NCBI GenBank assembly: GCA_964577785.1
Contig: CAZOAK010000003.1
Location: 1 to 48,952 of the forward strand
Source of the DNA: an uncultured Candidatus Saccharibacteria bacterium
GTDB taxonomy: Bacteria; Patescibacteriota; Minisyncoccia; Phycocordibacterales; CAIRYW01
Length of the DNA: 48,952 bases
Direction: 5' to 3'
Shown: in pieces, positions 2,032-37,669 of the stretch
Layout of the letters: each line of letters opens with the position of its first letter
Numbering within the stretch: the first letter of the stretch is position 1
The notes under the pieces: model-generated
What the model was told of the DNA's origin: nothing
The model's database searches: none
The model's input: the letters and a program-made list of their open reading frames with translations, nothing else
Position numbers and translations under genes: made by a program

Positions 2032-2036
2032 CAAAA

Positions 2037-2070
2037 AGAAAAACTACTAGAATATTCTAGTAGTTTTTCT
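2037..2070 (+). terminator. intrinsic terminator (34-nt perfect palindrome followed by TTTTGTG)
   Basis: AGAAAAACTACTAGAAT / ATTCTAGTAGTTTTTCT. Confidence 0.75.
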
Positions 2071-2109
2071 TTTTGTGCTCCCCCGAGAAAAGTCTAAACG
2101 ACTTTTCGT

Positions 2110-2218
2110 GTAGGGATCGAACAGATTCACGGGTACGCTCGCAGTAGCGAGTGTCGTAAATCTGCGTTTTGAATTCTGATGAGAGACGACGAGTCAGAAT
2201 TCGAAAAGATCACCCTAC
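2110..2218. ncRNA. candidate structured RNA: three-helix junction, class unknown
   Basis: Helix A 2110-2118/2208-2218. Helix B 2122-2131/2155-2164 plus 2135-2142/2147-2154. Helix C 2171-2179/2194-2202. No credible ORF, and G+C is higher than the surroundings. Confidence 0.35.
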
Positions 2219-2230
2219 CCAGGATCGGAA

Positions 2231-2300
2231 ACCTTTTGAGCTGATTTTGTGAGGTAACGAAACAAAATCACCAAAAGGTATACTGCTCCTGTAAGGCGAG
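2231..2300 (+). ncRNA. conserved RNA-like motif, copy 1 (ACCTTTTGAG..CCAAAAGGT-N8-CCTGTAAGG)
   Basis: Shares the basal 8-bp stem, 8-nt spacer and 9-mer with 11455-11505. The distal stem differs but still pairs (GATTTTGT/ACAAAATC). Confidence 0.45.
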
Positions 2301-2406
2301 ATTCCCTACCGGTGATCGAAAACTTTTTAAGTAGATTTTTGAGTTTGATAAAACAAAGAAAATCTCCAATAGACGAGACGACAAACAACATGATAAAATA
2401 CAGCAT

Positions 2407-11346: not shown

Positions 11347-11454
11347 TTAAAATGATATAATAAGAATCAAGAACAAAAATAATGAACAATACAAAAGCCA
11401 AAATTTTGAAGGAAAAAACAAAGGTGAGTTTGGGATTAGGGACCCAAGCGCAAG

Positions 11455-11505
11455 ACCTTTTGAGATTGTATTCAATCCAAAAGGTGAACAGATCCTGTAA
11501 GGATG
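11455..11505 (+). ncRNA. conserved RNA-like motif, copy 2
   Basis: ACCTTTTGAG..CCAAAAGGT-N8-CCTGTAAGG, the same layout as 2231-2300. The distal stem is GATTG/CAATC. Confidence 0.45.
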
Positions 11506-11643
11506 AGGAGGAAGACCTAGCTATGCTAAGTCGACTGACGAAACTTGGTTTTTTACCAAAATTTTGACTTTTGGATGTTCAAGCTTTCTTTTCTTCAAGA
11601 ATTTATTATAAGCGGTTATTTTTGTGATGGATTCTAAAAGCAT

Positions 11644-11808
11644 ATGGAAACAAAATCAATTATATGGATAGGAATGCTAGTGGGAGGGACAGTAGGAGGG
11701 TTCATTCCGATGCTGTGGGGAGATAGCGGATTTTCCATGCCTGGAATAATATTTAATGCTATTGGAGCTATTTTTGGAATTTATTTTGCCTATAAACTCA
11801 CAAATTAA
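11644..11808 (+). CDS. 54-aa Gly-rich two-helix membrane protein
   Basis: METKSIIWIGMLVGGTVGGFIPMLWGDSGFSMPGIIFNAIGAIFGIYFAYKLTN. Not in the ORF track (under 60 aa). Confidence 0.45.
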   Translation: METKSIIWIGMLVGGTVGGFIPMLWGDSGFSMPGIIFNAIGAIFGIYFAYKLTN

Positions 11809-25254: not shown

Positions 25255-27037
25255 ATGAACAACAATAACCCAGAAATAAGAAATATAGCCATAATCGCCC
25301 ACGTGGACCACGGCAAGACCACGCTCACAGATGCCATAATGAAGCAGACTGGTGCCAATGTAGGTGAAGTATCCATGGACTCAAACGCTCTAGAAAAGGA
25401 ACGTGGCATTACTATCTATGCCAAAAACACATCTATTAGATACAAAGATACTAAAATCAACATTGTAGATACCCCGGGTCACGCCGACTTCGGTTCAGAA
25501 GTAGAGCGAGGACTGTGTTCTTTTGGTTGTTGATGCTCAAGAAGGTCCAATGCCTCAAACAAGATTCGTGCTTAAGAAATCTTTAGAACTAGGACTTAAA
25601 CCAATCGTTGTAATAAATAAGATTGATAAACCAGCAGCAAACCCGGCAAAAGCACATGATGAAGTACTAGAACTATTTTTGGATCTTGGTGCTAACGATG
25701 AGCAATGTAACTTCCCTACTGTATATGCTATTGGACGTGAAGGAGTTGCGATGAAAAATCTTACAGATGAGAGAAAAGATTTGAGTCCACTTCTAGATGT
25801 AGTACTTGAGCATGTACCTGTTGCCAATACAAAAGATGACGTGCCACTTCGCGCACAAGCATTCAACCTTGCATATGACAACTTCCTTGGACGTATGGCA
25901 GTATGTCGTATGTATGAAGGAACAATAAAGGACGGTCAAACAGTAACAGTCAAAAAACAATCAGGAGCAGTAGGTACAGGACGACTTACAAAACTCTATA
26001 CATTCGAAGGAATCGTTAAAAAAGAAGTTCCGGTGGCTCACTCTGGAGATATTGTGATGATTGCCGGAATTCCTGATATTTATATTGGAGATACTATTTG
26101 TATAACACCAGACCAAGAATCACTGCCAGCTATTAACGTTGATGAACCAACAATCGCCCTAGACTTCATTGTTAATGACTCGCCATTTGCGGGACGAGAA
26201 GGAAAATTCGTAACAACAAGACAGATTAGAGACAGACTTGAAAAAGAATTAGAAATAAACGTTGGACTCAAAGTTGATTTCGGTGCCAACGATGCATTCA
26301 AAGTTTATGGTCGCGGAGAACTACATATTGGTATCTTACTCGAAAACATGAGACGCGAAGGTTTCGAAATGCAGGTATCACAGCCACAAGTTATTATTCA
26401 TGAAATAGAAGGTAGAAAACAAGAACCTTATGAAGAAGTAACAGTAGATGTTCCTACAGAATTCTCTGGAGCAATTATTGAAAAACTAGGTAAGAGAAAA
26501 GGAATAATGAGCAACATGAAGCAGGATGGTAATCAAACTCGACTTATTTTTGAAATCCCAACTCGAGGATTACTCGGATACAGAAACCAATTCGTTATTG
26601 ATACAAAAGGTGAAGGAATTCTTTGTTCTAGATTTATAGATTTTAGAGACTATGCTGGAGTTATAGAGAAACGAGAGGTAGGATCAATGATTTCTATGGA
26701 AGCTGGTAAAACACTTGCCTTTGCATTGGACAACCTACAACAAAGAGGAACTCTATATCTTGGACCCGGAACAGAAGTATATGTTGGACAGGTTATTGGT
26801 AACACTTCAAAGGGTGATGAAATGGAAGTTAACCCAACAAAAGGTAAACAACTTACAAACATGCGTGCCTCAGGTTCTGATGGAACAACATATCTAACAC
26901 CATTTTATGAAGTGGATATTGAAAGAGGTCTAGAACTTATCCAAGAAGATGAATATCTAGAAATAACACCAAAAAGTGTTCGTATCAGAAAGAAACTTCT
27001 AACAAATACTGATAGAGCGAAATCGAAGAAGAAGTAA
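25255..27037 (+). pseudogene. typA: translational GTPase TypA/BipA, interrupted in switch II
   Basis: [10 protein letters not shown] and [14 protein letters not shown] lead to a stop at 25531. The homologous sequence resumes in the +1 frame as [20 protein letters not shown] from 25511. About 5 conserved residues are missing. Confidence 0.8.
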
Positions 27038-34229: not shown

Positions 34230-34255
34230 TTTATCGGACATCCGACGTCCGATTA
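34230..34255. repeat. REP-1 palindromic element, copy 2
   Basis: 26/26 identical to copy 1. Its last 3 nt are the stop codon of the 1138-aa gene. Confidence 0.8.
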
Positions 34256-37200
34256 GGATGCTAGCTCTGGGGTCGGTTCTGGGGCTTGTTCGGGTTCCGG
34301 TGTAGGATCTGGTGTTAGTTCTGGCAGAGGTTCAGTTTTAGGAGTAGGATCAGGTTCAGATGTTGGTTCTTCTTCAAGTTCCGCTACTTCTGGATCAGGT
34401 TCTGGTTCAGAAGTTGCTTCTGGCTCCGGTATTGGTTCAGGATCTGGAGAAGGGCTAGGAGTAGTAATTGTCTGTCCAGCATTTTGGAGAAGAGAATCAA
34501 GTTGTGATTTTGTGATACATGTCTCTCCACTATCCTCATTACCTACACAGAGAGTTTCTTGATGAGAGGTATTAGCGAAGAAGTGTTGAATTCCATTCTC
34601 AGCACTTGCTAGCCACTCTGTTACATGCCTGTAAACAGAATCAAAGAAACTTTCAGCAAAAGAAATTGATGCAGGAGTACTTAATGCTGTAGATGATGCA
34701 ATAGTATTTAAATTAAGACTAATTGCTTTGATACCAAGAAGTGCGATTCCAGCCGGATCAATTGTTGAAATAGCGGTGTCAGATCCACCAAGTCCAAATG
34801 TAGCAAAAAAATCTTGTGCCATAGGACCTATATGCATAGTGTCCTGTGTTTCGGATTTGTAATTCCACTGTGTTATTGGTAACGTACTTATTTTTTCTAA
34901 AATAGAATTCTCATCTACTTCTTGAAAATTTTCTTTTAGATTTCTATCCGAAGCATTAGTCCAAGTTCCCCCAGTTGTTACGTATGCACCAGAAGCGAGA
35001 CTTAGAGGTCCTAGGTATGGAGTGGTGGTACCGATGCCGACGTTGCCAGCACTCGAAACAACCAAAGTATCTCTCCCAGATCCACTAATAACGCTAAACA
35101 ATGTACGGTCCTTTAAAGGATTTGATACTGTACCACCTCCACTATACACACCATCAACAGTAATTGAATTAGAAGTAATTGCTGTAACATTAAAAATTCT
35201 TCCTTCAAAACCAATAGCAGATCCAGGTTGATAATGCGCTCTTAAATCAGCAGATGTTGTAAAAGTACTTTGACCGTCTACACTTGTGACTGTACCTGCG
35301 CTCACCGTATCAGCAAGACTTCCTTTTACACTTAAAACATTTTTTATTGAAGTTGATGCGACTGACGCATCAATAACGTTTACATAACTATCCCAACCAC
35401 TACCAACACCAATATGAATTCTAACATCTGACCATGTTGATCCAACAGAATCTGCGTAGAGTCTCATACCGGTATGATCCTGAAGATTACCTCCAAAACC
35501 AGTATCCGTACCCAATTGAAGAGAATTTCTAGCTGCATCTGTGGGTCCCATGTACCCAATACCAATACCACCTCCACTTATAGAAAGTTTAGTGGTTGGA
35601 CTAACTGTACCGATACCGACGTTGCCCGTATTAAGAATCGTCATTCTTTCTATGGGTGTATTAGGAGTACTCGCTGTAAACACAGAGACACCGGAAGGTA
35701 CTACCGCAATCGCAGCACCACCTGATGAACCAGATTGATAACTGTTATACAAATTGGAAGTCAAAGCAATTCCTTGCCCAAAGTACCAATCTTGTATTTC
35801 TCCCCAACTGTCAACATTACCGCCTGTCCGAATTTTGTATGCTGTATTTGAATATGATCCCGCACCGCCTCGAATAACACCCAAAACATCCAGAGGATGT
35901 GCTGGGCCTACCGTTCCAATCCCCACATTCCCTCCGTTAGTTACAATAAGTTGAGTTGCAGTTGAAGAGCCGACGACAAAGGATGGTCCTGAAATTCCGT
36001 TTGGATTTACTGAGAGTAGTCCCCACGGAGTTGTGGTGCCAATGCCGACGTTGCCATTAGACCCCACAACCATTCGAACTAATCCAGATTGGCTCTTGAT
36101 TTGCAAGTCATTTGAACCGTTTGGTTTCAATAACAAAGGACCATCTGTCTGAGTCGCTTTACCCAACCATATCCCGGCCTGCATATCCTCAAACCCAGAC
36201 TGCTCCGGAGAAACACGCAGGATTCCTGTTTCGTCATTCTGTCCACCGAGCATGGCGACACCACTAAGCCAATAACTATTATTTGCATAGACTTTGTTTA
36301 TTCTATTGCCACTAAATGAACCAATTTCATAAGTACCAGCTACACTTGGAATAATATTCCCTCCCAAATTAATTTGCCCGTTATCTAGAATTGAAAAATT
36401 TTCTACGTTACTTGAATTTGCAACTACAAGTGCCCTATCTGTACCCGTTCCACTTCCTGTGACCGCGAATTTTGCAGATGGTGTAGTTGTCCCGATGCCA
36501 ACGTAACCGTTTTTATTTATCCTCATCACTTCGTTTAAATACCCTCCATCTGCTGTGCTAAAAACTAAGTCTGTAGGAACAGTTAAATTACTCCCTCCTG
36601 ATTGAATAGCCTTAATGGAAGCACCATTTTGGAAATAGTCGCCACCATTTCTTACACCGTAAAAATTAATCGCTCCCAAAACTTCATTAATAATTGTTGT
36701 ACCCGACAATGATCCATTTGTATTTATAGAATTATTATGAGACTTAGTAAAGGACAAAGATGAAGTATTACTTGAGTCAGATGAGTAACTAGCAATAATA
36801 ACGCTAGAATCTGATGCTGACTTAGTGATATCTAAATTGCCTGTAGGTGCTGTGGTCCCAATCCCCACATTCCCCGTATTGTAATAAATATCAGAACCAG
36901 AACTCGTCCACTGACTTGATATATTACTCGCCCACTCTGTAGTACTAGCTGTTAGAGGAATGACATATCCATCTTCTAGAGTAAGTGCGAGAGTACCAGA
37001 TGTTTCAATAGGTCCACCAGAAACAGAGAGACCTGTAGGTGCGGACATATCAATACTTGTTACAGTTCCTTTGGGTGAATTATCAGAAGTTTTGTAAATA
37101 CTTTCTGATGTTCGATATTCTGATCTGTTAATTAAACTCTTGAGATATTCAACTGTCGAAGCATTCATTGATATTAATTCTGTACGGAGAGAGTCTACGG

Positions 37201-37669
37201 AACTTGGGACATACACTGGGTATGAAGATCTCTCGATAATCCTCTCAGTGATTGTGTTTGTTCCAGGTAGAACCTGTGTACTTGGTTTAGAAACAACAGG
37301 TTGAGTTGAGGTTGCATTTGGACTTGCAATGTTTTTAGAAAATAAAGGAACAAAGTAATCAGAGAGTCTATCAAGAAAGTTTGAGAGGACTCCGCCAGCG
37401 CTAGCTGTTTGGCTAGAAGTATTTTTAGTAGCTACCACTCTGACAATGACATCGCTCCAGAAATCTGCAGTCCGAAGAATTGAATATTCCGCTGATTCTA
37501 AGATTTCATTACCTATATCTGTATAGAAAGTGATAATATCTGAGACAGGATTGTAGGCATTACCTGCATGAACGTTAATGGGTAGAGACGCGAAAAATAG
37601 TAAGGAAATATAAAAAATAATTGTGCGTGAAAAAACTCGCATTTGGAGTAATTTTACCATAGAAAACAA
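34253..37669 (-). CDS. secreted tail-fibre-like repeat protein with a peptidase-S74 intramolecular chaperone domain and a Pro/Glu-rich tail
   Basis: Signal-like MRVFSRTIIFYISLLFFASLPINVHA. Six G(N/Y)VGIGT(T/V)xP repeats. SDRNLKEN..WNYK..HIGPMAQDF..L.LN matches S74. The start may be 37642. Confidence 0.85.
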   Translation of the reverse strand: MFSMVKLLQMRVFSRTIIFYISLLFFASLPINVHAGNAYNPVSDIITFYTDIGNEILESAEYSILRTADFWSDVIVRVVATKNTSSQTASAGGVLSNFLDRLSDYFVPLFSKNIASPNATSTQPVVSKPSTQVLPGTNTITERIIERSSYPVYVPSSVDSLRTELISMNASTVEYLKSLINRSEYRTSESIYKTSDNSPKGTVTSIDMSAPTGLSVSGGPIETSGTLALTLEDGYVIPLTASTTEWASNISSQWTSSGSDIYYNTGNVGIGTTAPTGNLDITKSASDSSVIIASYSSDSSNTSSLSFTKSHNNSINTNGSLSGTTIINEVLGAINFYGVRNGGDYFQNGASIKAIQSGGSNLTVPTDLVFSTADGGYLNEVMRINKNGYVGIGTTTPSAKFAVTGSGTGTDRALVVANSSNVENFSILDNGQINLGGNIIPSVAGTYEIGSFSGNRINKVYANNSYWLSGVAMLGGQNDETGILRVSPEQSGFEDMQAGIWLGKATQTDGPLLLKPNGSNDLQIKSQSGLVRMVVGSNGNVGIGTTTPWGLLSVNPNGISGPSFVVGSSTATQLIVTNGGNVGIGTVGPAHPLDVLGVIRGGAGSYSNTAYKIRTGGNVDSWGEIQDWYFGQGIALTSNLYNSYQSGSSGGAAIAVVPSGVSVFTASTPNTPIERMTILNTGNVGIGTVSPTTKLSISGGGIGIGYMGPTDAARNSLQLGTDTGFGGNLQDHTGMRLYADSVGSTWSDVRIHIGVGSGWDSYVNVIDASVASTSIKNVLSVKGSLADTVSAGTVTSVDGQSTFTTSADLRAHYQPGSAIGFEGRIFNVTAITSNSITVDGVYSGGGTVSNPLKDRTLFSVISGSGRDTLVVSSAGNVGIGTTTPYLGPLSLASGAYVTTGGTWTNASDRNLKENFQEVDENSILEKISTLPITQWNYKSETQDTMHIGPMAQDFFATFGLGGSDTAISTIDPAGIALLGIKAISLNLNTIASSTALSTPASISFAESFFDSVYRHVTEWLASAENGIQHFFANTSHQETLCVGNEDSGETCITKSQLDSLLQNAGQTITTPSPSPDPEPIPEPEATSEPEPDPEVAELEEEPTSEPDPTPKTEPLPELTPDPTPEPEQAPEPTPELAS
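34709..34951 (-). other. peptidase-S74 (endosialidase-type intramolecular chaperone) domain region
   Basis: The Ser of SDRNLK is encoded at 34949-34951, 232 residues from the C-terminus. Confidence 0.7.

What the first reader, a model, noticed from the sequence alone, without database searches (positions are those of the whole stretch)
2231..2300. A conserved hairpin-plus-tail RNA motif present at 2231-2300 and again at 11455-11505
Both loci carry ACCTTTTGAG, a variable distal stem, CCAAAAGGT, exactly 8 nt, then CCTGTAAGG followed by GAG 1-2 nt later. The basal 8-bp stem ACCTTTTG/CAAAAGGT is identical. The distal parts differ but still pair (GATTTTGT/ACAAAATC versus GATTG/CAATC), the pattern expected for a structured RNA with a variable-length stem. 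Copy 1 is followed by a degenerate tandem echo (2294-2375). Each locus lies upstream of a small membrane protein (2407-2796; 11644-11808, then dgkA). This could be an unclassified riboswitch or leader. Loose similarity to the 3' half of ydaO-type leaders (..GGUGAA..CAG.U..CCU.GUAAG..) is only an impression.
Basis: partly seen in the sequence, partly recalled or inferred. Interest (0 to 1): 0.65.

Follow-up and report, generated by a model that had tools for sequence, protein, structure and literature searches.

The report
tRNA-linked structured RNA insertion module
The two look-alike hairpin motifs are genuine copies of a widespread folded-RNA module of Patescibacteria that is absent from Rfam 15; it sits mostly just behind tRNA genes and comes and goes between closely related strains, so it behaves like a small insertion element, not a metabolite-sensing riboswitch.

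Summary
Both loci carry the same composite motif, which no shuffle of the window reproduces, and the "echo" is a real decayed tandem copy. Rfam 15 has no match. The organism is a Patescibacteria (Paceibacteria-type) bacterium.

One metagenome pattern scan returned at least 120 further loci. The core is two hairpins: P4 with a bulged A and a distal part of variable length, and P5 with a UGUAA loop. They are joined by RUACWG. 24 of 25 base pairs covary, and G-U pairs outnumber A-C mismatches 102 to 17.

The riboswitch or leader reading is not supported. Downstream genes are unrelated and point either way. The strong association is with a same-strand tRNA gene just upstream (41 against 3 on the opposite strand). 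In many such copies the core is bracketed by an inverted and a direct copy of that tRNA's 3' end, starting in the T-loop. The same tRNA-derived hairpin holds different modules in different genomes. Tandem arrays are common.

In strains about 97-98% identical to the window, the 281 nt that carry copy 2 are missing. The most likely reading is a small, structured, insertion-type (cassette-like) element. Its mobilisation mechanism and RNA function are unknown.

The parts
2033..2074 (.). Perfect 18-bp hairpin flanked by A-runs and T-runs, which looks like a bidirectional terminator. It ends the upstream transcription unit (ORF 1291-1986). This is context, not part of the element.
   Evidence: Read directly from the sequence. 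Located by string search.
2110..2219 (+). 'Unit 0' of the tandem array. GTAGGGATCGAA (2110-2121) can pair with ATCACCCTAC (2209-2218). Between them lie two unrelated hairpins (2122-2164 and 2167-2208). The architecture is the same (closing helix plus two hairpins) but the module is different.
   Evidence: The MFE and centroid folds have z = -5.4. Other modules inside the same kind of scaffold are seen elsewhere. That this unit is homologous to those is inference.
2208..2317 (+). Copy 1, the whole element (type B-like).
- Outer helix P1: GATCACC 2208-2214 with GGTGATC 2311-2317.
- Inner helix P3: GGATC 2222-2226 with GA(T)TCC 2300-2305.
- The core lies between them.
- The 3' flank GAGATTCCCTACCGGTGATC (2298-2317) looks like the T-loop, T-stem and acceptor 3' part of a tRNA.
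   Evidence: Read from the sequence. The reading rests on analogy with tRNA-linked copies. In runs X3 and X5 similarity to the window stops at 2175 and resumes at 2294.
2231..2300 (+). Copy 1 core.
- P4: 2231-2238 with 2272-2279.
- Bulged A at 2239.
- Pair G2240-C2271.
- Distal P4a: 2241-2270, with a tandem G-A motif and a GUAA cap at 2251-2261.
- Junction AUACUG: 2280-2285.
- P5: 2286-2289 with 2295-2298, with one U-C mismatch.
- Loop UGUAA: 2290-2294.
   Evidence: R1 scores it 69.1 bits (E = 2.6e-14) and R2 70.9 bits. Covariation is shown.
2304..2372 (+). Degenerate tandem copy (the 'echo') of 2213-2278. It runs CCCTACC, GGTGATCGAAAAC, then a decayed P4. Junction J4/5 and hairpin P5 are lost.
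   Evidence: The local alignment scores 41; 0 of 500 shuffles reach it. The covariance model gives only 7.6 bits, E = 4.9.
11353..11361 (+). TGATATAAT, a match to the extended -10 promoter consensus, directly before the insertion point of the copy-2 segment.
   Evidence: Read from the sequence. This is a consensus match only. In the 'empty' strains the ATG at 11644 lies 6 nt after it.
11363..11643 (+). A 281-nt segment that carries copy 2. It is absent from closely related strains, where CACCC stands in its place. In this window it forms the 5' UTR of the 54-aa membrane-protein and dgkA genes.
   Evidence: Contigs in DNA runs X3 (depth 10.8) and X7 (depth 5.3) join 11362 to 11644, with more than 255 nt matching on each side.
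11384..11580 (+). Copy 2, the whole element (type A). Its long imperfect closing helix pairs 11384-11419 with 11547-11580. Inside lie GGUGAG (11423-11428), hairpin P2 with a GGGA-type loop (11429-11448), CGCAAG (11449-11454) and the core.
   Evidence: The MFE and centroid folds have z = -5.3. The type A layout is seen in about 67 copies.
11455..11504 (+). Copy 2 core.
- P4: 11455-11462 with 11478-11485.
- Bulged A at 11463.
- Short distal stem P4a: 11464-11477.
- Junction GAACAG: 11486-11491.
- P5: AUCC with GGAU, 11492-11504.
- Loop UGUAA: 11496-11500.
   Evidence: R1 scores it 55.7 bits (E = 3.3e-11) and R2 59.4 bits.

Best explanation
**What it is.** The motif is the conserved core of a family of small structured insertion-type elements, about 110-280 nt long, found in Patescibacteria.

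**The fold.** The + strand folds into two hairpins:
- P4, with a bulged A and a distal part of variable length, often capped by a tandem G-A motif and a GNRA loop.
- P5, a 4-bp stem with an invariant UGUAA loop.

The hairpins are joined by an invariant ..AC.G junction (RUACWG) and preceded by AA. The two flanks close the core with a helix.

**Canonical copies (type B).** These lie just 3' of a tRNA gene.
- The 3' strand of the closing helix is a direct copy of that tRNA's 3' end, from the T-loop to the discriminator.
- The 5' strand is its inverted copy, interrupted by a hairpin.
- The layout is: tRNA, terminator, inverted copy, module, direct copy.

**Behaviour.** The module behaves as an exchangeable cassette. 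The same tRNA-derived hairpin holds other modules in other genomes. Units are repeated in tandem and are gained or lost between close strains.

**In this window.** Copy 1 sits in a three-unit tandem array after a terminator. Copy 2 sits in a 281-nt indel between a promoter-like box and a start codon, so it is a 5' UTR only by accident of position.

**Shown here:** the fold and its covariation, the strand specificity, the tRNA linkage, the direct and inverted repeats, the module exchange, the tandem arrays and the indel polymorphism.

**Inferred:**
- Insertion or recombination happens at T-loop-like (G)TTCGA sites and rebuilds the target gene's 3' end.
- The folded strand is RNA.
- The enzyme or ribozyme that moves the element is unknown.
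For: **Family and fold**
- The pattern scan found at least 120 metagenome stretches, far above chance. 117 of 124 distinct copies also carry the unconstrained 5' strand of P4.
- On 122 copies, 92.1% of cells are paired against 73.3% in shuffles. 24 of 25 pairs change on both sides. The covariation score is 0.392 against 0.098 in shuffles (0 of 500 reach it) and at most 0.079 when the partners are slid (seed alignment).
- In the 20 copies that do not match the search pattern, both stems change sequence. The AA, the A, C and G of the junction, and the loop UGUAA stay 18-20 of 20.
- G-U pairs number 102 against 17 A-C mismatches.

**Context**
- The upstream neighbour is a same-strand tRNA in 41 copies and an opposite-strand tRNA in 3. 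The downstream neighbour shows no strand preference.
- 17 of 24 type B copies follow a tRNA.
- All 3 hits in 247 kb chosen without regard to the motif fit this picture: 2 follow tRNA-Ser and 1 is cut by a contig end.

**Repeats**
- 10-25-nt direct repeats of the tRNA 3' end start at the end of P5. Examples: L199 24 nt, L166 23, L107 22, L176 25, L168 20, L196 21.
- Of 79 tRNAs, 25 have such a repeat downstream and 1 has one upstream.
- The inverted copies are visible.
- Copies after rplK are flanked by a repeat of the last L11 codons.

**Cassette behaviour**
- L038 and L200 have the same P1-P2-P3 scaffold after tRNA-Ser(gga) but hold different modules.
- Tandem arrays occur in L140, L082, L170, L095, L164 and L124.
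- L081 carries two tRNA-Ala 5' parts, each fused to a module.

**Polymorphism**
- A 281-nt indel carries copy 2.
- The copy-1 core is replaced by 113 other letters in runs X3 and X5.
Against: - No recombinase, transposase or reverse transcriptase was found among 36 window ORFs scanned. None is inside any unit.
- The 281-nt indel has no clear target-site duplication, and its polarity (insertion or deletion) is unknown.
- Only about a third of copies show the inverted or direct tRNA repeats by exact matching: inverted >= 7 nt in 40 of 114, direct >= 12 nt in 15 of 114. Most type A copies, including copy 2, do not.
- The core is deeply conserved. It recurs at the same tRNA species in different genomes: tRNA-Met next to tRNA-Asp in L095 and L113, and tRNA-Ser(gct) in L140, L199 and L053. 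This fits a host-useful RNA as well as a selfish element.
- The sample is biased by the search pattern.
- There is no usable transcript evidence.
Confidence: 0.55

Rival explanations
1. It is a host small-RNA gene family. The units are genes for stable structured RNAs, co-transcribed with or placed next to tRNA genes. The helix built from a copy of the tRNA 3' end serves as a stable or processable scaffold. A known parallel is plant tRNA-snoRNA dicistrons processed by RNase Z. The conserved core would bind a protein or perform a trans function.
For: - The junction and loop nucleotides are invariant while the stems covary, as in functional RNAs.
- The element is retained in streamlined genomes at roughly 1 per 25-80 kb.
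- It recurs at the same tRNA species across genomes.
- Units often carry their own terminator (L095, L140, L107, L092).
- In the RNA-labelled run X23, the only contig from the 14-kb stretch that fits over its length lies on 2147-2283.
Against: - Close strains lack the 281 nt with copy 2.
- Decayed copies exist: the echo, and L111 and L124.
- The closing helix pairs the discriminator and position 74 too, so it is not a tRNA-like acceptor end.
- Different modules occupy the same scaffold.
- No partner protein has been identified.
Confidence: 0.25
2. It is a self-cleaving or self-splicing RNA. The three-way junction, with its invariant junction strands and arbitrary closing helices, would be a new small ribozyme that processes the transcripts it is embedded in. 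It could also mediate its own spread, as an intron does.
For: - It has a hammerhead-like topology: a closing helix plus two hairpins, with conserved junction strands AA(A)R and RUACWG and an invariant loop.
- It is multi-copy, occurs in tandem arrays and tolerates many contexts, including the 3' end of rplK and tRNA bodies.
Against: - No Rfam ribozyme matches, even at E <= 10.
- There are no data on RNA ends.
- Insertions come with a duplicated gene end, so splicing is not needed.
- Type A copies lack a closing helix directly next to the core.
Confidence: 0.12
3. It is a folded single-stranded DNA recombination site. The strand-specific fold would act in DNA, as integron attC sites or the CTX phage attP hairpin do. 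The inverted and direct copies of the tRNA end would imitate the duplex target site for a host recombinase.
For: - The order direct copy, inverted copy, spacer, direct copy is what hairpin-mediated integration leaves behind (own knowledge of CTX phage and XerCD; not tested here).
- Arrays are cassette-like and modules are exchanged.
- G-T pairs are also tolerated in DNA hairpins, so the strand asymmetry does not exclude DNA.
Against: - GNRA caps, tandem G-A pairs and a T-loop-like UGUAA loop are typical RNA tertiary motifs.
- No integrase is nearby.
- The central module, not the arms, is the most conserved part. This is the opposite of attC sites.
Confidence: 0.08
4. It is a riboswitch or cis-regulatory 5' leader for small membrane proteins.
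For: - In this window both copies lie upstream of membrane-protein genes.
- Copy 2 lies between a -10-like box and the ATG.
Against: - There is no downstream strand preference.
- The downstream genes are unrelated.
- Most homologues of the 129-aa gene lack the motif.
- Close strains express the same gene context without the segment.
- A promoter-like site for the 129-aa gene lies downstream of copy 1, at 2370-2399.
- Rfam gives no match to ydaO or ykkC.
Confidence: 0.04

Closest known systems
Small structured intergenic repeats and MITE-like elements: REP/BIME, Correia, BOX, ERIC and Rickettsia palindromic elements (own knowledge, plus the Delihas 2011 review, PMC3184786, seen in the listing)
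   Same: They are multi-copy, 100-250 nt long, strongly folded and intergenic or at gene ends. They occur in tandem or nested copies, vary in presence between strains, and can end up in UTRs.
   Different: - Here the interior is the conserved part, and it shows RNA-type covariation.
- The 'terminal repeats' are not a fixed element sequence. They are copies of the 3' end of the neighbouring gene.
- No short fixed target-site duplication was seen, and no cognate transposase was found.
Integrative elements that target tRNA genes, with tyrosine-integrase att sites in the T-loop (own knowledge: Williams 2002, Nucleic Acids Res)
   Same: An intact tRNA is followed by a displaced direct repeat of its 3' end that starts in the T-loop. 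Nested and tandem events occur at one tRNA (L131, L140).
   Different: - The whole unit is only about 150-250 bp.
- It has no integrase or cargo genes.
- It carries an additional inverted copy of the tRNA end and a conserved structured core placed exactly at the T-loop junction.
Integron cassettes with attC sites, and the folded attP of CTX phage (own knowledge)
   Same: The fold is strand-specific and consists of imperfect inverted repeats around a variable centre. Arrays are cassette-like. Different inserts are exchanged within the same framework.
   Different: - No IntI or Xer link was shown.
- The arms are locus-specific, whereas attC arms are not.
- The centre is conserved, whereas the attC centre is not.
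- RNA-type tertiary motifs are present.
Riboswitches, including ydaO (c-di-AMP) and ykkC (guanidine, ppGpp, PRPP)
   Same: It is a conserved structured element with a variable-length stem, and it sometimes lies in a 5' UTR.
   Different: - There is no covariance-model match.
- There is no conserved downstream gene set or orientation.
- It mostly lies 3' of tRNA genes.
- It is multi-copy and occurs in tandem.
- It is polymorphic between strains.
Small RNAs linked to or scaffolded by tRNA: plant tRNA-snoRNA dicistrons (cited in PMC12045711), and mitochondrial t-elements and mascRNA (own knowledge)
   Same: A structured RNA sits directly behind a tRNA gene. A helix built from tRNA acceptor and T-arm sequence could offer processing sites.
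   Different: The helix here pairs the whole tRNA 3' fragment, including the discriminator. It is an inverted copy, not the tRNA's own 5' strands. No processing evidence exists.
Hammerhead-type small self-cleaving ribozymes
   Same: It has a three-way-junction topology with conserved junction strands and arbitrary helices. It is multi-copy and occurs in tandem.
   Different: It has no CUGAUGA...GAAA core and no Rfam hit. Cleavage has not been tested.

Membership tests
Riboswitch / cis-regulatory 5' leader | It lies upstream of, and on the same strand as, a recurrent and functionally related gene set | tested here: not met
   Downstream CDS neighbours are on the same strand in 50 copies and on the opposite strand in 44. 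The downstream families are unrelated. 77 of 80 homologues of the 129-aa gene lack the motif.
Riboswitch / cis-regulatory 5' leader | An expression platform (terminator, or sequestration of the ribosome-binding site) is coupled to the aptamer | tested here: inconclusive
   Terminator-like hairpins lie within 150 nt downstream in 33 of 123 copies, against 28 on the opposite strand as control. No alternative pairing with the core was found.
Riboswitch / cis-regulatory 5' leader | Ligand-dependent structural change | not testable with these tools
   This needs in-line probing or a reporter assay.
ydaO (c-di-AMP) and ykkC-type RNAs, and any other Rfam 15 family | A match to the family covariance model | tested here: not met
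   The window gives no hit at gathering score. At E <= 10 around both copies only noise appears. In 18 related loci only tRNAs and 16S rRNA were found.
Conserved structured RNA family (generic) | Base pairs are kept through compensatory changes across many sequences, beyond the controls | tested here: met
   24 of 25 pairs change on both sides. The covariation score is 0.392, against 0.098 in shuffles and at most 0.079 with slid partners. The alignment was fitted to the model. The seed alignment A3, made by MAFFT without gaps, gives 0.329 against 0.111.
Conserved structured RNA family (generic) | It is transcribed as a discrete RNA | tested here: inconclusive
   There is only one 151-nt contig, on 2147-2283, in an RNA-labelled metagenomic run. 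Runs X21 and X22 were uninformative.
MITE / small mobile repeat | Many dispersed copies, with presence or absence varying between close relatives | tested here: met
   At least 120 loci were found, including tandem and decayed copies. A 281-nt indel separates strains about 97-98% identical.
MITE / small mobile repeat | Fixed terminal inverted repeats, a short target-site duplication and a cognate transposase | tested here: not met
   The closing helices are locus-specific copies of the neighbouring gene's end. No duplication is seen at the 281-nt indel. No transposase was found in the window.
tRNA-targeting integrative element | An intact tRNA gene plus a displaced direct repeat of its 3' end starting in the T-loop or anticodon loop | tested here: met
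   25 of 79 tRNAs have a repeat of at least 11 nt downstream, against 1 upstream. Repeats of 17-25 nt start at the T-loop. The two window copies do not meet this, because the window has no tRNA.
tRNA-targeting integrative element | The element encodes an integrase between the repeats | tested here: not met
   The units are 130-260 nt long and hold no ORF.

The most novel reading that the evidence does not exclude
It is a previously unrecognised kind of mobile RNA-structured cassette. A small folded RNA, possibly catalytic or acting as a guide, homes to T-loop-like (G)TTCGA sites. It rebuilds the 3' end of the interrupted gene and leaves an inverted plus a direct copy of that end as its own closing helix. 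Different modules can swap within the same tRNA-derived hairpin scaffold. In effect this would be an integron-like cassette system for structured RNAs, anchored on the tRNA genes of ultra-small bacteria.
Probability: 0.25. Interest if true: 0.9.

Novelty: new variant of a known kind. Interest (0 to 1): 0.75.

Why it matters
Patescibacteria have tiny, streamlined genomes, and their non-coding RNA content is almost uncharted. This work gives four things:
- A high-confidence, unclassified structured RNA class with many members.
- An unusual and testable architecture, in which the element's closing helix is copied from the 3' end of the adjacent tRNA or protein gene.
- Evidence that different modules are exchanged within one scaffold.
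- Evidence of turnover between strains.

If the element moves by an RNA-based or hairpin-based mechanism, it would be a new route of genome change at tRNA genes. If it is a host RNA, it is one of the most abundant unknown RNAs of this phylum.

There is also a practical use. Annotating it prevents mis-calling such regions as riboswitches, leaders or spurious ORFs. One example is ORF 11382-11567, which overlaps copy 2.

Tried and rejected
- **Rfam.** I searched at gathering score on the window, at E <= 10 around both copies, and on 18 related loci. Nothing turned up but tRNAs and rRNA. The ydaO and ykkC resemblance is therefore dropped.
- **Hammerhead.** A hammerhead-like CUGAUGAG string at 2178-2185 gave only a noise hit to a snoRNA model and is a simple hairpin. 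Rejected.
- **Link to the 129-aa membrane protein.** 100 homologues and 80 genome loci were examined, and only 3 carry the motif. Rejected.
- **Terminator coupling.** There is no excess over the opposite-strand control.
- **Origin from a duplicated tRNA with a T-loop insertion.** In type B copies the 5' strands are exact inverted copies of the 3' fragment in a shifted register. They are not the tRNA's own acceptor or T-stem 5' strands (L107, L166). Rejected.
- **Function as a tRNA-like minihelix.** This is weakened because the helix also pairs the discriminator.
- **Phage origin.** A scan of viral contigs gave one chance hit inside a coding region.
- **RNA evidence.** Runs X21, X22 and X23 gave only fragments.
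- **Empty alleles at a tRNA-linked locus.** I looked at L038 in groundwater runs and found no joints.
- **Mobile-element genes in the window.** None were found among 36 ORFs.
- **Literature.** Six full-text searches found no description of this element. A seventh call failed on syntax.
- **Exact-match repeat statistics.** These show that the tRNA-end architecture is not universal across the family.
Full report
**1. Observation**

CCTGTAAGG occurs exactly twice in the window. ACCTTTTGAG occurs exactly twice. CCAAAAGGT lies 8 nt before CCTGTAAGG in both loci. The composite pattern matches twice and matched in none of 100 shuffles.

The region after copy 1 (2304-2372) is a real, decayed tandem copy of 2213-2278. 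Its local alignment score is 41, against a shuffle mean of 14.7 and maximum of 28. It has lost the junction and the second hairpin, and the covariance model gives it only 7.6 bits. Both intergenic regions fold far better than shuffles, with z about -5.4 and -5.3.

**2. Known families and organism**

Rfam 15 has no match at gathering score in the window. Around either copy at E <= 10 there is only noise. In 18 related loci only tRNAs and a 16S rRNA were found. The impression of a ydaO or ykkC likeness is therefore not supported.

The window is an ordinary chromosomal stretch of a low-GC bacterium. It carries rpoB, rpoC, dnaG, rpoD, metK, hisS, truB and other housekeeping genes. Homologues of its proteins carry source names from Paceibacteria, Parcubacteria and Patescibacteria.

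**3. The family and its fold**

Of 124 distinct copies, 117 also carry the unconstrained 5' strand of the basal stem. The 8-nt spacer is nearly always RUACWG plus two bases that pair across the second hairpin.

I built a gap-free seed of 28 sequences (A3) and imposed this structure:
- P4: 8 bp, a bulged A, one G-C pair and a 9-bp distal stem.
- A 2-bp cap flanked by tandem G-A.
- A 6-nt junction.
- P5.

On the seed, 89% of cells are paired and the covariation score is 0.329 against 0.111.

Model R1 then recovered 122 copies. About 20 of these do not match the search pattern. On that alignment:
- 92.1% of cells pair, against 73.3% in shuffles.
- 24 of 25 pairs change on both sides.
- The covariation score is 0.392, against 0.098 in shuffles (0 of 500 reach it) and at most 0.079 with slid partners.
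- Only the proposed fifth pair of P5 fails.

In the 20 copies free of the pattern, both stems change sequence. P4 appears as CUCAUUG/CAAUGAG and GGUUGCC/GACAACC. P5 appears as UCCA/UGGA, GUCA/UGAC and AAGC/GCUU. Five features stay 18-20 of 20: the two A before P4, the first pair A-U, the A, C and G of the junction, and the loop UGUAA.

G-U pairs outnumber A-C mismatches 102 to 17, so the + strand is the folded strand. UGUAA fits the five-nucleotide T-loop motif pattern, and the distal cap is a GNRA or triloop beside tandem G-A. Both of these readings rest on my own knowledge of RNA motifs and were not tested here.

**4. Context: not a leader**

With ARAGORN tRNA calls and a crude ORF caller, the upstream neighbour is a same-strand tRNA in 41 copies and an opposite-strand tRNA in 3. 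The downstream neighbour shows no preference: CDS 50 same to 44 opposite, tRNA 11 to 6.

Ten sampled neighbours are unrelated. Downstream genes are MiaA, a PilB-like ATPase, GT2 and GT4 glycosyltransferases, LtrA, a trypsin-like protease and BipA. Upstream genes are L11, LepA and Hsp20.

The 129-aa membrane protein after copy 1 has many homologues. In 80 genome loci fetched through that protein (247 kb, chosen without regard to the motif), R1 and R2 find only three copies. Two lie behind tRNA-Ser genes and one is cut by a contig end. That gives a density of about 1 per 80 kb there and 2 per 49 kb in the window.

**5. Architecture around the core**

I sorted copies by the left junction.

Type B has ..UCGAAAAG before P4, and 17 of 24 such copies follow a tRNA. 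In these copies:
- The sequence that begins within the last bases of P5 is a direct repeat of the upstream tRNA's 3' end, from the T-loop (GGTTCGAAT..) through the T-stem and acceptor 3' strands to the discriminator and one base beyond. Examples are L199 24 nt, L166 23, L107 22, L176 25, L196 21, L168 20, L092 18, L085 17 and L140 17.
- The stretch before the core is the inverted copy of that fragment, split by a hairpin (P2, often with a UGGGA loop).
- The RNA would therefore form an outer helix P1, then P2, then an inner helix P3, then the core.
- The inverted copy is complementary in a register that ignores the tRNA's own stems. It includes the palindromic T-loop TTCGAA and the discriminator. 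It is therefore not the 5' half of a duplicated tRNA (L107, L166).
- An intrinsic terminator usually lies between the tRNA and the unit. In tandem arrays it is part of the repeated unit (L140, L095).

16 of the 25 enclose this core. The other nine enclose different structured inserts.

After tRNA-Ser(gga), L038 and L200 share the same P1-P2-P3 scaffold and the same direct repeat. L038 holds this core and L200 holds another module. The core is thus one of several modules found at the tip of a tRNA-derived hairpin.

Type A has GGUGAG, then a hairpin, then CGCAAG before P4. It makes up about 55% of copies and includes copy 2.
- It is more dispersed: 11 of 72 copies follow a tRNA.
- In L081 and L176 it directly follows the 5' part of a tRNA up to the variable loop, and it is followed by T-loop remnants. 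These look like interrupted extra tRNA copies beside an intact one.

About ten copies ('type C') lie right after rplK.
- The stop codon sits in a hairpin formed with the element's 5' strand.
- The last L11 codons are repeated after P5. In L150 these are GTTGAAGTGAAGTAG and GTTGAAGTGAAATAG.

By exact matching, only about a third of all copies show the closing inverted repeat, and 13-26% show the direct repeat. The architecture is well documented for type B and type C but not for most type A copies.

**6. Turnover**

Tandem arrays of two to five units are frequent: L082, L170, L140, L095, L164 and L124. Decayed copies occur, such as the window echo and L111.

Most tellingly, the window itself is polymorphic. 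In DNA metagenome runs X3 and X7, contigs of a strain about 97-98% identical join 11362 directly to 11644, with CACCC between them. These strains therefore lack the 281 nt that contain copy 2.

At copy 1, contigs in X3 and X5 match up to 2175 and again from 2294, with 113 unrelated letters in place of 118. The right breakpoint falls inside UGUAAGG, exactly where the gene-end copy starts in tRNA-linked units.

**7. Anatomy in the window**

Copy 1 (2208-2317) lies after the terminator-like hairpin 2033-2074. It sits inside a three-unit array:
- Unit 0 (2110-2219), which holds different hairpins.
- The motif unit.
- The decayed echo.

Its 3' flank GAGATTCCCTACCGGTGATC resembles a tRNA T-loop, T-stem and acceptor fragment, and it pairs with GATCACC at 2208-2214. 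The window has no tRNA gene. A promoter-like site for the 129-aa gene lies downstream of the motif, at 2370-2399.

Copy 2 (11384-11580) is a type A unit closed by a helix of about 35 nt. It lies in the 281-nt indel, directly after a TGATATAAT box. In the empty strains the ATG follows that box by 6 nt. In this strain the element has therefore become a 5' UTR of about 275 nt.

**8. Interpretation**

*Shown:*
- A real, widespread, strand-specific structured module.
- Preferential location 3' of tRNA genes.
- Closing helices copied, inverted and direct, from the neighbouring gene's 3' end.
- Different modules in the same scaffold.
- Tandem amplification.
- Gain or loss between strains.

*Inferred:*
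- The units are small insertion-type cassettes that recombine or insert at T-loop-like (G)TTCGA sites and keep the target gene intact by supplying or duplicating its 3' end.
- The folded strand acts as RNA.

The mover is unknown. No recombinase, transposase or reverse transcriptase was seen. The phage collection does not hold the element.

The main rival is a host small-RNA gene family. It is not exclusive of this reading, and it is favoured by the invariant junction and loop and by recurrence at the same tRNA species. Ribozyme and folded-ssDNA readings remain open. The riboswitch reading is contradicted by the distribution and by the empty allele.

**9. Comparison with known systems**

- It works most like small structured repeats or MITE-like elements, and like tRNA-targeting integrative elements. 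It fails their defining features of fixed terminal repeats with a transposase, and of an encoded integrase.
- It resembles integron attC and CTX attP hairpins in layout, but its conservation pattern is the reverse of theirs.
- It is not a member of any Rfam 15 family.
- Six full-text searches found no description of it.

**10. Limits**

- The family sample is biased by the exact search pattern.
- The gene calls around copies are crude.
- The types are my own sorting.
- The polarity of the indel is unknown.
- The transcript evidence is a single 151-nt contig in an RNA-labelled run, on 2147-2283.

Noticed in passing
window 25255-27037: The bipA/typA gene is split into two overlapping ORFs: 25255-25533 (92 aa, with the AHVDHGKTT GTPase start) and 25523-27037. 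This implies a frameshift near 25505-25530, which is either a pseudogene or an assembly error.
   Followed up: partly
L020 1274-1450; L200 (minus strand, after tRNA-Ser(gga) 2587-2673); L114; L083; L107 minus strand: Other unrelated GC-rich structured inserts sit between an inverted and a direct copy of a tRNA 3' end. One example begins CGCCGGAGCGAUG and continues to GCGAGGCGGUG. L200 and L038 share the scaffold but hold different inserts. These may be further unclassified RNA modules.
   Followed up: partly
L102, L109, L117, L121, L150, L157, L161, L162, L171, L181 (after rplK): About ten copies lie immediately after the ribosomal protein L11 gene. The stop codon is in a hairpin loop, and the last L11 codons are repeated after the element. 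In the two loci read downstream (L102, L161), rplA does not follow rplK.
   Followed up: partly
L081 12630-13050 (minus strand): Two tandem copies of the 5' two-thirds of tRNA-Ala(CGC) are each fused at the variable loop to a type A unit and followed by a decayed T-arm. An intact tRNA-Ala lies next to them.
   Followed up: partly
L131 (minus strand, downstream of tRNA-Ile): A second partial copy of tRNA-Ile, running from the anticodon-stem 3' strand to the 3' end, lies about 300 nt after the intact gene and before the motif unit. This looks like nested insertion events at one tRNA.
   Followed up: no
window 11353-11361 and 11644: In strains lacking the 281-nt segment, the TGATATAAT box is followed 6 nt later by the ATG of the 54-aa membrane protein. 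This suggests a leaderless or near-leaderless mRNA.
   Followed up: no
window 2167-2208: A long hairpin contains the string CUGAUGAG. Rfam gave only a noise hit to a snoRNA C-box model, and there is no hammerhead match.
   Followed up: yes
window 34253-37669 (minus strand): A 1138-aa ORF carries a C-terminal Peptidase_S74 (endosialidase chaperone) domain. It lies in the only stretch of raised G+C (0.40-0.43 against about 0.33). It may be a tail-fibre-like or surface-fibre gene of foreign origin.
   Followed up: no
window 2147-2283: In the RNA-labelled metagenomic run X23, the only contig from the first 14 kb that fits over its length lies on the copy-1 region. It is 151 nt long, has 1 mismatch and depth 2.
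   Followed up: partly
window 11382-11567: A 61-aa ORF overlaps copy 2. It is probably spurious, because it spans the structured element and lies within the strain-variable segment.
   Followed up: no
L185 and L195 (spacers after tRNA-Arg): The tRNA 3' end together with its trailer can form a long hairpin with a complementary stretch just downstream, for example GGGAGCACAAAA with UUUUGUGCUCCC. This is the inverted copy pairing with the real tRNA end rather than with the downstream copy.
   Followed up: no
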